The position numbers are program-made. Below, in pieces: positions 26,101 through 30,985 of a DNA stretch of 64,000 nucleotides. The stretch covers positions 37,005 to 101,004 of the forward strand of contig JALUTT010000120.1 of NCBI GenBank assembly GCA_027021705.1, given 5' to 3'. The DNA comes from Anaerolineae bacterium (GTDB taxonomy: Bacteria; Chloroflexota; Anaerolineae; S140-20). The first letter of the stretch is position 1; the number at the start of each line of letters is the position of its first letter.

Positions 26101-29100
26101 ACCGTCTACACCGGTCAGCGGCTGATCATCCCCGCCGCCGGTCCCTCCCGCTGCCCTGCCGGCGTGGATCCGTAACTCCTTAACAAGAGCATAAACCGGC
26201 CAGGAGCAAGCTATGTCTGAAGCTATCCTCAACGAGGCAGAAGCAGAGCGCATCATCAGCCTACCAAAACGCATTGTGGGGTCGAAACAGTGGCATCAAC
26301 GTAATGATGGCAACTGGTACATAGAAATGCCGGTCGAAGCATCGGAGCAACTACCTCTTCGCCTTTACGGGCGTTTCAACCCGCGCACAGGTAACTACAC
26401 CTTCATCCTCTTTTATGGTCGCCTGAACTTGCGACGCCTTGATATGGGGAAAACCCATCACAACCCAGGCTGTGACAATGTGGGTTCTCCCCACAAACAC
26501 ACGTGGACCGACCGTTTCCGCGACAAGTTAGCTTACATGCCCTCGGATATGAAAGCGACAGACTCCCTTGGCGATATTTTCGCGAAGTTCTTGGCTGAAT
26601 GCAACATCGTCTTGGAAGGTCGTTTCAAGGAGCCCCCTCAAAGCTACCAGAGGAGGTTCATATGAACTGCGGACAACTGAGAGAAAAGGCGTTGACCCAG
26701 TTGCCCCTGCTATTCACCTGCAGCGAGGAAGACGACTACCTGAAGATCACCACGCCGTATCTCCACCCTGATGGCGACTACATTGACCTTTATCTGGTCG
26801 AACTGCCCACCGGCCTGTATCTCACCGATCTGGGCGAGACAATAGGCTATCTGGCCGACCACGGCATCCGCCTCGAACAATCGCCCAAACGACGAAAGGC
26901 CGTCGAAGACGTGCTCCTCACCCACGGCGTGGAGATGTTCCGAGGCGAGTTGCGGGTGCCTTTGGACACCTGGGAGAAAGCCGCCTGGGCTGTGACACGC
27001 TTGAGTCAGGCGATTGTCCAGATCAGCGATCTGGTTTTCAGCCTGCGTCTAGGTGCTCTGAGCACCTTCAAGGAGGAAGTGGAGGAGTACTGGATTGAGT
27101 CTCAGATCCCCTATGAGGCAGATTACCGGGTGATCGGCGGTTCTGGCGAGACCTATACGGTTGATTTCTACATCTCTCTGCCCCGTCGTCCTTGGTTAGT
27201 CGAAACGCTGTCCAGCCAGTCTCGTGGTTACGCCAACACCCTGGTTAGCCGGGTGATCCGCACCTGGCACGACCTGCTCCGGGCAGATGGACGTTATGGC
27301 TATGTTTCCCTTGTGGATGACTCCACGGATGTCTGGAAAGCAGAGTGGTTTGATCAACTGGCAGCCCTCTCCGAGGTTGTTGTCTGGAGTGAGCGTGAAC
27401 GGTTGTTGGCCCTTTTCGGGGCGAGAGACCTGTTGCAGGATCGCCGTTGAGATTGGAGCCCGCGAGTAGAGGGAGATTCCGAATATGGAAGTAGGTAACG
27501 TTCGGCAGATTGACATTGACGCTGAGATGCAGCAGGCTTACCTCAGCTACGCGATGAGCGTCATCGTGGCGCGGGCGCTGCCCGACGCCCGGGATGGGCT
27601 CAAGCCGGTCCAGCGGCGCATCCTCTACGCGATGCACGATATGGGGCTGCGCCCCGGCACCCCCTACAAGAAGAGCGCCCGCATCGTGGGAGAGGTGCTG
27701 GGGAAGTACCACCCCCACGGCGACCAGGCGGTCTACGAGGCGATGGCCCGGATGGCTCAGGACTTCTCGCTGCGCTACCCGCTGGTGGACGGGCAGGGGA
27801 ACTTCGGCTCGGTGGACGGGGACAACCCGGCGGCGATGCGGTACACGGAGGCGCGGCTGGCGCCCATCGCCGAGGAGATGCTGGCGGACCTGGAGAAGGC
27901 GACGGTAGACTTTGTGGACAACTTCGACGGGACGCTGCGGGAGCCGGCGGTGCTGCCGGCGGTGTTGCCGAACCTGCTGGTGAACGGGGCGTCGGGGATT
28001 GCGGTGGGGATGGCGACGAACATTCCGCCCCACAACCTGGGAGAGGTGGCGGAGGCGCTGATCTACCTGATCGAGCGGTGGGAGGAGCGGGAGGAGGTGA
28101 CGGTTGAGGAGCTGATGCAGTTCATCCAAGGCCCCGACTTCCCTACCGGCGGGCTCCTCTACCGCCACCACGAGGATGCGGAGACCGACTCCCTCCGCCA
28201 AGCCTACGCCGTGGGCCGGGGTAAGGTCGTCGTCCGGGCCAGGGCCCACGTCGAGGAGATGAGCCGGGGCCGCCACCGCATCGTCATCACCGAACTCCCC
28301 TACCAGGTGGACAAGTCCTCCCTGGTCGAGCGGATCGCCCGGCTGGTGCGGGATGGCCGGATCGAGGGGATCACCGACCTGCGGGATGAGTCGGACCGGC
28401 GAGGGATGCGCGTCGTCGTCGAACTGACGCGGACGGTGGAGCCCCAGGCGGTGTTGGAGCGGCTCTTCAAGCTGACGCCGCTGCAAACCACCTTCAGCAT
28501 CAACATGCTGGCCCTGGTGGACGGCGAGCCCCGCCTGCTCTCCCTCAAGCGGGCGCTGCTGGTCTTCATCGAGCACCGACGGACCATCATCCGCCGGCGC
28601 AGCGAATACCTGCTGGCGAAGGCCCGCGACCGGGCCCACATCCTGGAGGGGCTGCTCAAGGCGCTGGAGGCCCTGGACGAGGTGATCGGCATCATCCGCC
28701 GTAGCCGCACCGCCGAGACGGCCCACAAGAACCTGCGCCGCCGCCTGAAGATCACCGACCGCCAGGCCCAGGCGATCCTGGAGATGCCCCTGAAGCGGTT
28801 GGCCGCCCTGGAGCGCCGGAAGCTCCAGGAGGAGTATCGGGAGAAGAAGCGGGAGATCCGCTACCTGGAGGACCTGCTGCGCCACCCCAAGAAGGTCCTG
28901 GCCCTGATCCGGGAGGAGATGCAAAACCTGAAGACCCGGTACGGGGATGCCCGCCGCACCCAGGTAGTCGGGGGGCCTGCCCGGCGGGTGACCGCCCGCG
29001 ACCTGATCCCCGAGGAGGAGGTCTGGCTGGTCGTCACCCGGAGGGGGCGGATCGCCCGCCAGCCCTCGGAGGCCCCGTTTCGCCTGCCCGCCCGCCCCAA

Positions 29101-30985
29101 GGACCCGCCGCTCCTCGTCCTGCAAGCCAACACCCGGGATCGGCTCTACCTCTTCACGGCCCAGGGCGAGGCCGTCTCCCTGCCCATCCACCAGGTGCCT
29201 TCGGGAGCTGCTGTGGCAGGAGAGGGGAGCCACTGGGCCGAGCTCAGCCCCTTGGGCCGGCGGGATCGGGTGGTGGCCGGGCTGGCCCTCCCCTCCGATG
29301 ACGACGCGCTCCAGGGCTTCCTCTTCCTCGCCACCGCCGGCGGCAACGTCAAGCGGCTGGCCCTGGCCGACCTGCCCGGCCTGCGGACCGACCGCTTCCC
29401 GGTGATGAATGTGGCCCCCAAGGACGCCCTGCGGTGGGTCCGATGGGTCCGGGAGGAGGACGAGGTGCTCTTGGTGACGGCGGCGGGACGGGCCATCCGC
29501 TTCGCCGTGGCCGAAGTGCGCCCCAGCGGACCGACGGCCGGCGGGGTTCGAGGGGTGAAGCTGAGCGGAACCGACGACGCCGTCGTCGGGCTGGAGGTAG
29601 TCCGTCCTCGGGCCGCTCTCCTCGTCGTCGCCGAGGACGGCTACGCCAAGCGCACCTCCTTGAGCGATTACCCCCGTCAGAAGCGACACGGCGGCGGGGT
29701 GATCACGGCCCGGGGAGGACGGCTGGCCGGCGCTGCGGTGGTCGTCGGTGAAACCCGCCTGGCGGTGGTCACCGCCCGGGGCCGGGTCAAGACCACCCGC
29801 GCCCGCAACGCCCCTTCGATGGGGCGTCCCACCCGAGGGAAGCCGCTCCTCCCGTTGTCCTCGGGCGACCGGGTCGTCGCCGTCCTGTCGCTGGAGTGAC
29901 AAGCCCCCCTTGATGGCACTTCCCGCAGGTGAAGCGGTGTCCGGTGGCAGCGGTGGCCTGCCGTGGGATGACGGCGGCGTACTCCAGACCGTGGAAGGGA
30001 CCTGCGGGAAGAGCAAGAGAAAGGAGTGAGTCTATGCCAACCTTCCGTGATACCCTGCTCATCTGCGAAGCCTGTGGAAAAAGCTTCATCTTCACAGTCA
30101 CCGAGCAACGTCGCCTTTATGAGCAGGGCCTTCCCGTGGAACCGCCTCGCTACTGTCCCACCTGTCGTCTACGGGACCCGGAGACGGGGAAGTGGGTGGG
30201 CCGCATCAAGTGGTTCAGCCTGGAGAAGGGGTACGGGTTCATCACCAAGCCCGACGGTGAGGAGATCTTCTTCCACAAGAGCCGGGTGAAGGGCATCCAA
30301 CCCGCCCTGCTGACCGACGGCCAGAAAGTCCGCTTCGACCAACTGAAGACGGCCCGAGGCCTGGAGGCGATCAACGTGGAGCCAATGCCTGCCGACCGGT
30401 AGCCCCTTCTCCTCCTCCCCTGTCGCTGCCCTTTCCATTTTGGTGGAAGGGGCCTTTTTGTTTGCCCTGGGTAACTGTTCACCCTCCCGCAGGTTAGGCG
30501 CGTTTCCGACGCGAAACCGTGCTTCAAATAGCCCATCGGGGCTGAAAGCGTCCTCGACCGGTGACCTGCGGGAGGGTAGGCTGAATAGATACTGCTCTGG
30601 TTTGACAGCCTGCCCACTTTCGACTACAATCCCTGAGCGAAAAGCCCAAACCACGATTTGATGGTCCACGGGATACGCAACACGCAACACCCCCTGTCAC
30701 CCGTAGCACGACCGGAGGCAGAAAGCGATGAAGTGGATGACCAGTGAAGAGGCCCGTCAGGCTTTCCTAGATTTCTTCGCCCAGCGGGGACACGCCATCG
30801 TCGCCAGCTCCTCCCTCATCCCCCACGACGATCCGACGCTCCTCTTCACCAACGCCGGGATGAACCAGTTTAAGGATGTCTTCCTGGGATTGGAGAAGCG
30901 GCCTTACACCCGAGCCACCACCGTCCAGAAGTGCATGCGCGTCTCCGGCAAGCACAACGACCTGGAGAACGTTGGGCCGTCTCCC

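What a model noticed while it worked through the whole genome (the two positions that open the first line are those of the whole stretch)
27485..29899. Second GyrA without a GyrA-box and without its own B subunit: two A subunits share one GyrB
The genome has one gyrB but two type IIA A subunits: g03321 with the GyrA-box and g03083, 60% identical, with the catalytic RYTE motif but no GyrA-box. The box-less copy forms its own Anaerolineae clade, implying a topo IV-like enzyme that arose from gyrA in this class and borrows GyrB.
Evidence so far: Sequences. Six-frame counts: one GyrB, two A in G000; the same in 6 of 14 relatives. In each of these pairs one copy has the box or a near variant and one lacks it; the 8 box-less copies group with support 0.98.
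(Added by a program. Inside this text positions count along the whole contig: contig position 37,005 is position 1 of the stretch shown here. "Call 12" and the like, gene names such as g00115 and contig names such as C1 are that model's own, and its searches are not shown. The text may have been shortened before it was handed on; [...] marks where a part breaks off. The agent that wrote the report below was given it as the finding of a first reader that could run no searches.)

Follow-up and report, generated by a model that had tools for sequence, protein, structure and literature searches.

The report
Second gyrase subunit sharing one partner
These bacteria carry a duplicated DNA-gyrase A subunit that has lost its supercoiling motif and has no B subunit of its own, so it probably borrows the gyrase's one to untangle chromosomes, and the two gene copies keep overwriting each other's front end.

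Summary
Confirmed and extended. Window 27485-29899 encodes an intact 804-aa type IIA A subunit (A2): catalytic Arg119-Tyr120, six-bladed CTD, blade-1 GyrA-box deleted. G000 has one boxed GyrA (A1) and one GyrB. The 2A:1B set holds in 33 of 61 class genomes and 7 of 9 single-contig ones, and in 0 of 97 other Chloroflexota. A missed parE is therefore unlikely.

(1) A1 and A2 share 597 nt with 4 differences (27547-28143, covering the catalytic winged-helix region). Independent contigs show doubled depth there. Similar tracts occur in 10 of 48 pairs: recurrent gene conversion.
(2) A2 keeps the blade-5 box-like motif (42 of 43, against 15 of 43 in A1), linked to decatenation in mycobacterial gyrase.
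(3) One A2 sublineage sits behind its own B gene, which descends from Chloroflexota gyrB rather than old parE.

Best reading: a home-grown topo IV-like decatenase that shares GyrB, an intermediate in the repeated birth of topo IV. Binding and activity are inferred. GyrB sharing was already suggested in print for Synechocystis Sll1941.

The parts
27485..29899 (+). gyrA2: second type IIA A subunit (A2), 804 aa, no B gene next to it
   Evidence: (above GyrA cut-offs, below ParC cut-offs)
27547..28143 (+). Gene-conversion tract shared with gyrA on G000:C137: 597 nt, 4 differences, codons 21-220 (winged-helix region with the catalytic Tyr and the [10 protein letters not shown] helix)
   Evidence: contig depth 135 against 68-69 in the flanks, with breaks at both ends
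27839..27844 (+). Catalytic Arg119-Tyr120 (AMRYTE)
   Evidence: RY in 42 of 43 box-less copies, 1 gap
28160..28189 (+). A2-lineage insertion after GPDFPT (segment 15-27 aa against 12 in A1); the long tract stops just before it
28508..28578 (+). Second identical tract with gyrA, 71 nt, codons 342-364
   Evidence: contig breaks at 28537/28549 and 28578
28985..29896 (+). C-terminal beta-pinwheel, six blades, no C-tail
   Evidence: model pLDDT 96.6; best matches GyrA CTDs, TM 0.82-0.89, 1wp5 0.82, E. coli ParC CTD 0.61
29057..29101 (+). Blade-1 loop with the GyrA-box deleted (10 residues shorter than A1)
29678..29698 (+). Blade-5 box-like motif QKRHGGG (residues 732-738)
29929..30402 (+). Zinc-ribbon plus cold-shock-domain gene (true start probably later than 29929); followed by a terminator-like hairpin at 30428-30453
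   Evidence: a homologue lies just downstream of A2 in 9 genomes of the first sample

Best explanation
A2 is a duplicate of gyrA that arose at or near the base of this class (Anaerolineae by the labels of its closest relatives). It lost the blade-1 GyrA-box and kept the catalytic tyrosine and the blade-5 loop. It assembles with the cell's only B subunit, so one GyrB pool serves two enzymes: A1(2)B(2) supercoils, and A2(2)B(2) cannot wrap DNA and acts as a topo IV-like decatenase/relaxase. Recombination between the two genes repeatedly homogenises the 5' part encoding the DNA-cleaving winged-helix region, and stops at the A2-specific insertion. In one sublineage gyrB was later duplicated in front of A2 (A3+B3 operon), giving a self-contained enzyme. 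Shown: gene counts, motifs, conversion tracts, tree positions. Inferred: binding to GyrB, loss of supercoiling, decatenation, any benefit of the conversion, and the order of events.
For: Counts: A1+A2 with one B in 33 of 61 class genomes, 13 of 14 class genomes in the phylum sample, 0 of 97 outside the class, 7 of 9 single-contig genomes. A2 is intact and conserved. An A subunit needs a B Toprim to cleave DNA (PMC11626157). Deleting the GyrA-box abolishes supercoiling but not decatenation, and the blade-5 box matters for decatenation in M. tuberculosis (PMC8216471); QxRxGxG in blade 5 is in 42 of 43 A2 against 15 of 43 A1. Conversion; the N-terminal tree pairs paralogues by genome (G000 1.00, G016 0.99, G009 0.95, G049 0.93, G046 0.92) while trees of the rest separate A1 from A2. 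A3 nests in the A2 clade (98-99); B3 nests in Chloroflexota GyrB (100); B3 with old ParE is rejected (AU p 0.010).
Against: No biochemical or expression data. Conversion is clear in a minority (10 of 48 pairs) and falls in the most conserved region, so it may be a by-product of similarity. AU test of A2+A3 with old ParC is borderline (p 0.052); CTD-only trees pull old ParC into the class clade even without A2. B3 placement inside the class has only 81 support. 12 of 61 genomes have A1 only and 5 have A2 only, so the pair is not universal. G000's two scored family members carry only A3+B3. G000 is 94.9% complete, in 183 contigs.
Confidence: 0.74

Rival explanations
1. A2 works mainly in mixed A1-A2-B2 tetramers, or as a GyrB sink that tunes supercoiling, rather than as a dedicated decatenase.
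For: The DNA-gate region is identical in G000 and the coiled-coil region is 55-72% identical, so heterodimers are plausible. One GyrB pool must be split between two partners.
Against: The catalytic RY is kept in every aligned copy and the blade-5 motif is better conserved than in A1. The same lineage works beside its own B in 9 genomes, in 6 of them as the only type IIA found.
Confidence: 0.12
2. Origin rival: A2 is an old ParC that lost ParE and whose 5' two-thirds were overwritten by repeated conversion from gyrA. Function would be the same as in the best reading.
For: Conversion is real; AU p 0.052; old ParC CTDs join the box-less group in a CTD-only tree.
Against: Best trees for residues 230-495 and 230-798 put old ParC far outside. 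Old ParC CTDs also fall into the class clade when A2 is removed, which marks that placement as noise. A2 scores above GyrA and below ParC family cut-offs. B3 is not old ParE.
Confidence: 0.12
3. A2 still supercoils, using the blade-5 motif or another loop in place of the blade-1 box (a second, specialised gyrase).
For: Six-bladed GyrA-like CTD, blade-2 proline kept in 39 of 43, CTD net charge +15 in G000; some lineages seem to live with a box-less enzyme alone.
Against: The blade-1 box is described as absolutely required for supercoiling (PMC11626157); blade-5 mutations affect decatenation (PMC8216471).
Confidence: 0.06
4. G000 has a parE that was not assembled, and A2 is an ordinary ParC.
For: G000 is a fragmented genome, 94.9% complete; 9 of 61 class genomes do have a B gene beside a box-less A.
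Against: Where that B exists it lies directly upstream of the A gene; here the upstream genes are DUF6978 and DUF1828 inside a 101-kb contig. One B match in 120 of 131 class genomes; 2A:1B in 7 single-contig genomes.
Confidence: 0.04
5. The shared 597-nt tract is an assembly artefact (collapsed or mis-resolved repeat).
For: G000 is a fragmented assembly; X1 may be its source sample.
Against: Separately assembled contigs break at 27547 and 28143 with doubled depth and no divergent single-depth alternative among the listed pieces; X2 and X3 (another study, about 1% different) also show raised depth. Tracts occur in single-contig G016 (231 nt) and G210 (128 nt).
Confidence: 0.03

Closest known systems
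Synechocystis sp. PCC 6803 Sll1941 (second GyrA-like protein) with GyrB Sll2005
   Same: Two A-type genes about 60% alike; Sll1941 read as ParC (PMC6560206, passages); GyrB suggested to work with it as a decatenase (PMC9825172, passages).
   Different: Different phylum, and A2 nests in Chloroflexota GyrA, so probably an independent origin (no cyanobacterial sequence was in my trees). That cyanobacteria lack parE is recalled, not read or tested. The passages I saw mention no gene conversion.
Topoisomerase IV (ParC2 ParE2), especially the six-bladed Bacillus stearothermophilus ParC
   Same: No blade-1 GyrA-box, remnants in other blades, six blades with the blade-2 proline, no acidic tail (PMC8216471).
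   Different: No ParE; below ParC family cut-offs; derived from class GyrA; exchanges DNA with gyrA.
DNA gyrase subunit A
   Same: Passes both GyrA equivalog cut-offs; same domain order; N-terminal 220 residues nearly identical to the host GyrA.
   Different: Blade-1 GyrA-box deleted; lineage-specific insertion after GPDFPT; fast-evolving CTD; 13 of 35 box-less copies carry long basic tails.
Aquifex aeolicus type IIA topoisomerase
   Same: Gyrase by descent, topo IV by activity, no canonical box (PMC8216471 section 16; PMC2647321).
   Different: Aquifex has a single enzyme; here the box-less subunit sits beside a boxed GyrA. The lone box-less enzymes of family f32 and the A3+B3-only genomes resemble Aquifex more closely.
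Mycobacterium tuberculosis gyrase with two GyrA-boxes
   Same: Blade-5 box tied to decatenation (PMC8216471).
   Different: There both boxes are on one protein; here blade 1 is kept on A1 and blade 5 preferentially on A2.

Membership tests
Type IIA topoisomerase A subunit | Breakage-reunion domain with catalytic Arg-Tyr | tested here: met
   PF00521 E 3e-162, Arg119-Tyr120
Type IIA topoisomerase A subunit | Beta-pinwheel C-terminal domain | tested here: met
   model pLDDT 96.6, TM 0.82-0.89 to GyrA CTDs
DNA gyrase subunit A | Blade-1 GyrA-box Q(R/K)RGG(R/K)G | tested here: not met
   loop 10 residues shorter, motif absent
DNA gyrase subunit A | NCBIfam GyrA equivalog score | tested here: met
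   935.6 against 902 and 917.7 against 877
DNA gyrase subunit A | ATP-dependent negative supercoiling with GyrB | not testable with these tools
   needs an assay
Topoisomerase IV ParC | No canonical blade-1 GyrA-box | tested here: met
Topoisomerase IV ParC | Dedicated ParE subunit | tested here: not met
   one B gene in G000 and in 7 single-contig 2A genomes
Topoisomerase IV ParC | NCBIfam ParC scores | tested here: not met
   635.5 against 813.25 and 566 against 628.9
Topoisomerase IV ParC | Descent from the old ParC lineage | tested here: inconclusive
   best trees say no; AU p 0.052; only 2 old ParC sequences in the trees
Topoisomerase IV ParC | Decatenation stronger than relaxation, no supercoiling | not testable with these tools
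   needs an assay
Cyanobacterial Sll1941-type second A subunit | Common ancestry with Sll1941 | not tested
   no cyanobacterial sequence was fetched
Type IIB (topo VI) as alternative decatenase | Top6A gene in the genome | tested here: not met
   0 of 1 and 0 of 5

The most novel reading that the evidence does not exclude
Anaerolineae preserve a whole series in the de novo birth of a topoisomerase IV from gyrase: (i) gyrA duplicates and the two copies split the GyrA-boxes (blade 1 to the supercoiler, blade 5 to the decatenase) while sharing one GyrB; (ii) domain-limited gene conversion is selected to keep both A subunits compatible with that one GyrB; (iii) gyrB duplicates, conversion stops and an independent parE-parC-like operon results; (iv) some lineages then keep only a box-less enzyme and lack a true gyrase, as Aquifex does.
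Probability: 0.3. Interest if true: 0.88.

Novelty: new variant of a known kind. Interest (0 to 1): 0.72.

Why it matters
Whether topo IV-like enzymes arose once or several times from gyrase is stated as open (PMC2647321). This class offers a recent, traceable case with intermediates: natural A1/A2 pairs that in G000 are nearly identical in the cleavage core and differ mainly in the tower insertion, coiled coil and CTD, plus a sublineage with its own B. It makes testable whether one B subunit can serve both supercoiling and decatenation, and which parts decide that. In practice, gyrA annotation, marker trees and assemblies in this class are confounded by the paralogue and its conversion tracts. 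The tract also covers the helix known (recalled) as the quinolone-resistance region, so the two targets do not evolve independently there.

Tried and rejected
Complex prediction of A2 with the GyrB Toprim region was not available, so the interface was not modelled. A single-sequence fold of the CTD failed (pLDDT 32); the alignment-based fold worked. A full IQ-TREE run on 63 B sequences timed out; AU tests did not finish; smaller sets finished. CTD-only trees could not place old ParC. No RNA holder listed. No Rfam match in 20000-36000; no sigma-70-like promoter before A2. No conserved upstream neighbour of A2. The Aquifex paper PMC3009783 is not held. PMC12041858 and PMC10269773 (passages) had nothing on shared subunits. 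Rejected: missed parE, assembly artefact and topo VI as decatenase (see rivals and membership tests). No supplements were read; annotation tables in supplements or subscription papers (for example reviews of topoisomerase evolution) could already note the 2A:1B pattern.
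Full report
Observation. The window is G000:C120:37005-101004. ORF 27485-29899 (+) encodes 804 aa, with PF00521 and beta-pinwheel repeats. 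It scores above both GyrA equivalog cut-offs and below the ParC ones. G000 (94.9% complete, 183 contigs) has one other A subunit on C137, 59.6% identical, and one B subunit on C20, which has a 560-aa intein in its Toprim domain. Profiles from 63 B sequences and from 13 divergent B3/ParE-like ones find nothing else among 112,318 frames. There is no topo VI A. A1 has QGRGGRG in blade 1; A2 lacks it and the loop is 10 residues shorter; both have AMRYTE. The three genes lie on three contigs, each away from contig ends.

Distribution. In 61 class genomes (G000 included) I fetched every A match and typed it by box, tower insertion and neighbour (the table is my own tally). A1+A2 with one B: 33, counting G009, whose B lies on two equal-scoring partial contigs. 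A1 plus a box-less A directly behind its own divergent B (A3+B3): 3. A3+B3 only: 6. A1 only: 12. A2 only: 5. None: 2 (64% and 86% complete). In a phylum sample filtered at 95% completeness, 13 of 14 class genomes are 2A:1B. Of 97 outside the class none is; 13 are 2A:2B and the other double matches are single split genes (three matches were not listed, and I assume they are the missing N-terminal pieces in G089, G091, G099). A different B domain gives one match in 120 of 131 class genomes, none in 1, two or more in 10. Of 9 single-contig class genomes checked, 7 are 2A:1B (G016, G037, G092, G116, G206, G264, G210; five genera; G210 is flagged 12% contaminated) and 2 are 1A:1B (G184, G219). The best named relatives of A2 are labelled Anaerolineae, Anaerolineales or Ardenticatenaceae; G000 itself carries no name.

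Gene conversion. A1 and A2 differ at 4 of 597 nt over window 27547-28143 (codons 21-220) and share a further 71 nt at 28508-28578, but are 50-57% identical in the CTD. In run X1 the flanks have depth 68-69, while two contigs covering 27547-28143 have 135.9 and 134.7 and break at the tract ends; no divergent single-depth alternative is among the listed pieces. X2 and X3, from another study and about 1% different, give 18.5 against 12.2 and 7.3, and 38.3 and 30.6 against 13.6 and 17.1. X1 may be the source sample, and depth is per contig. Among 37 within-genome A1/A2 pairs the longest identical run exceeds the maximum of 1,332 between-genome pairs (47 nt) in 8, and exceeds 100 nt in 5 (G009 389, G000 372, G016 231, G018 108, G015 101). 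Of 11 further pairs, 2 exceed 47 nt (G210 128, G179 62). That is 10 of 48, from 8 families, all ending before codon 182. Partial genes (G031, G051, G059) and the atypical G032 pair were left out. Four-fold-site identity is 0.61-0.67 within genomes against 0.45-0.48 between them over residues 10-129; the excess is mostly 0.02-0.13 further on and partly reflects shared codon bias. The N-terminal tree pairs paralogues by genome or family (G000 1.00, G016 0.99, G009 0.95, G049 0.93, G046 0.92, G006+G054 0.96), while trees of the rest separate A1 from A2. Against over-reading: most pairs show no recent tract, a genome's own A1 is the top N-terminal match for only 7 of 37 A2, and the converted region is also the most conserved. 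The long tract ends just before an insertion found in A2 and A3 but not A1.

Origin. With Chloroflexota GyrA, four GyrAs from other phyla and two old-type ParC as outgroups (43 of about 140 sequences; mixture model, quick search), residues 230-798 give: class A subunits one clade (97) inside Chloroflexota GyrA (100), and A2+A3 one clade (99). Residues 230-495 give 89, 91 and 98. Forcing A2+A3 with old ParC costs 12.9 log units, AU p 0.052 on 24 sequences, so it is not rejected. CTD-only trees are inconclusive because old ParC falls into the class clade even without A2. B3 lies inside Chloroflexota GyrB (100), sister to G007's B (94), within the class at only 81; grouping B3 with old ParE is rejected, p 0.010 on 22 sequences. 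G007's box-less A is likewise near A3. So the A3+B3 operon is best read as A2 that later gained a copy of gyrB. A1 and A3 show no tract in 3 of 3 genomes that have both.

How it probably works. The CTD folds as a six-bladed pinwheel (pLDDT 96.6). Deleting the blade-1 box removes supercoiling but not decatenation, and a blade-5 box supports decatenation in M. tuberculosis (PMC8216471, passages); blade 1 is called absolutely required for supercoiling, and cleavage needs the B-subunit Toprim (PMC11626157, passages). Blade-5 QxRxGxG is present in 42 of 43 A2, 7 of 9 A3, 15 of 43 boxed A1 and 6 of 18 outside GyrA. Long basic tails occur on 13 of 35 box-less copies, though not in G000. An intact, conserved A subunit with only one possible B partner, whose cleavage core is in G000 the same as GyrA's, most simply forms A2(2)B(2) as a decatenase. 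Binding, activity and any benefit of the conversion are inferred; the interface was not modelled.

Comparison with what is known. Synechocystis has a second GyrA-like protein, Sll1941, read as ParC (PMC6560206, passages), and GyrB has been suggested to act with it as a decatenase (PMC9825172, passages). Sharing of GyrB is therefore a published, untested idea. Whether topo IV-like enzymes arose several times is described as unclear (PMC2647321, passages). Aquifex is given as the only organism lacking a functional gyrase (PMC8216471, section 16). Nine searches of the open library (listings only, apart from the papers cited) showed nothing on this pattern in Anaerolineae or on gene conversion between gyrA paralogues; subscription papers and supplements were not seen. 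A2 works like ParC but fails ParC membership (no ParE, scores) and GyrA membership (no box).

Verdict. A real feature, stronger than first described. New variant of a known kind; interest 0.72; confidence in the mechanism 0.74.

Noticed in passing
G000:C20:3520-7212 (-), locus L001: The only gyrB carries a 560-aa intein with a helix-turn-helix and an endonuclease-like part inside the Toprim domain, so both enzymes would depend on one splicing event. Long B frames in other class genomes suggest more inteins.
   Followed up: partly
L266 (G219), L267 (G184), L289 (G205), L094 (G034); family f32: Single-contig G184 and G219 have one A subunit, without a blade-1 box but with QGRGGQG in blade 5, one B and no topo VI: possible gyrase-less lineage like Aquifex.
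   Followed up: partly
L079, L080, L081, L082, L083, L084 (G001, G002, G011, G029, G045, G053): Six genomes (86-93% complete), two from G000's own family, show only the box-less A3+B3 operon and neither canonical gyrA nor gyrB.
   Followed up: partly
G014, G020, G025, G027, G030, G034, G040, G060 (and G162): In genomes with A1 only, the blade-1 box is degenerate in 8 of 12, against rarely when A2 is present; some may be A1/A2 chimeras. Not independent lineages.
   Followed up: partly
L046 (G032:C247), L093 (G033:C100): A2-type tower insertion together with a box-like blade-1 loop; G033 also has extra CTD sequence.
   Followed up: no
L129 (G082:C8): Outside the class, another box-less A behind its own B that is GyrB-like (56%) and nests in Chloroflexota GyrB: possibly a further independent duplication; the A gene is split into two frames.
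   Followed up: no
window 26213-27450: DUF6978 and DUF1828 gene pair with low G+C (54-58% against about 68%) directly upstream of A2; looks like an insertion.
   Followed up: no
window 11852-14143: GDP-mannose 4,6-dehydratase gene with a LAGLIDADG intein; G000 has related inteins on at least five other contigs.
   Followed up: no
window 27710-27739: Both paralogues read [10 protein letters not shown], with Gln where E. coli GyrA has Ser83 (numbering recalled); paralogues often share this helix within a genome.
   Followed up: no
L015, L101, L102 (G058, G060, G022): Inteins or insertions in some class gyrA genes, one directly after the catalytic Tyr (G060).
   Followed up: no
G015:C13/C16/C66/C67, G004:C206, G018:C99, G036:C207, G047:C265: Contigs often break inside the 5' part of the A genes, as expected if the shared tract acts as a repeat; this may explain some single-A genomes.
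   Followed up: partly
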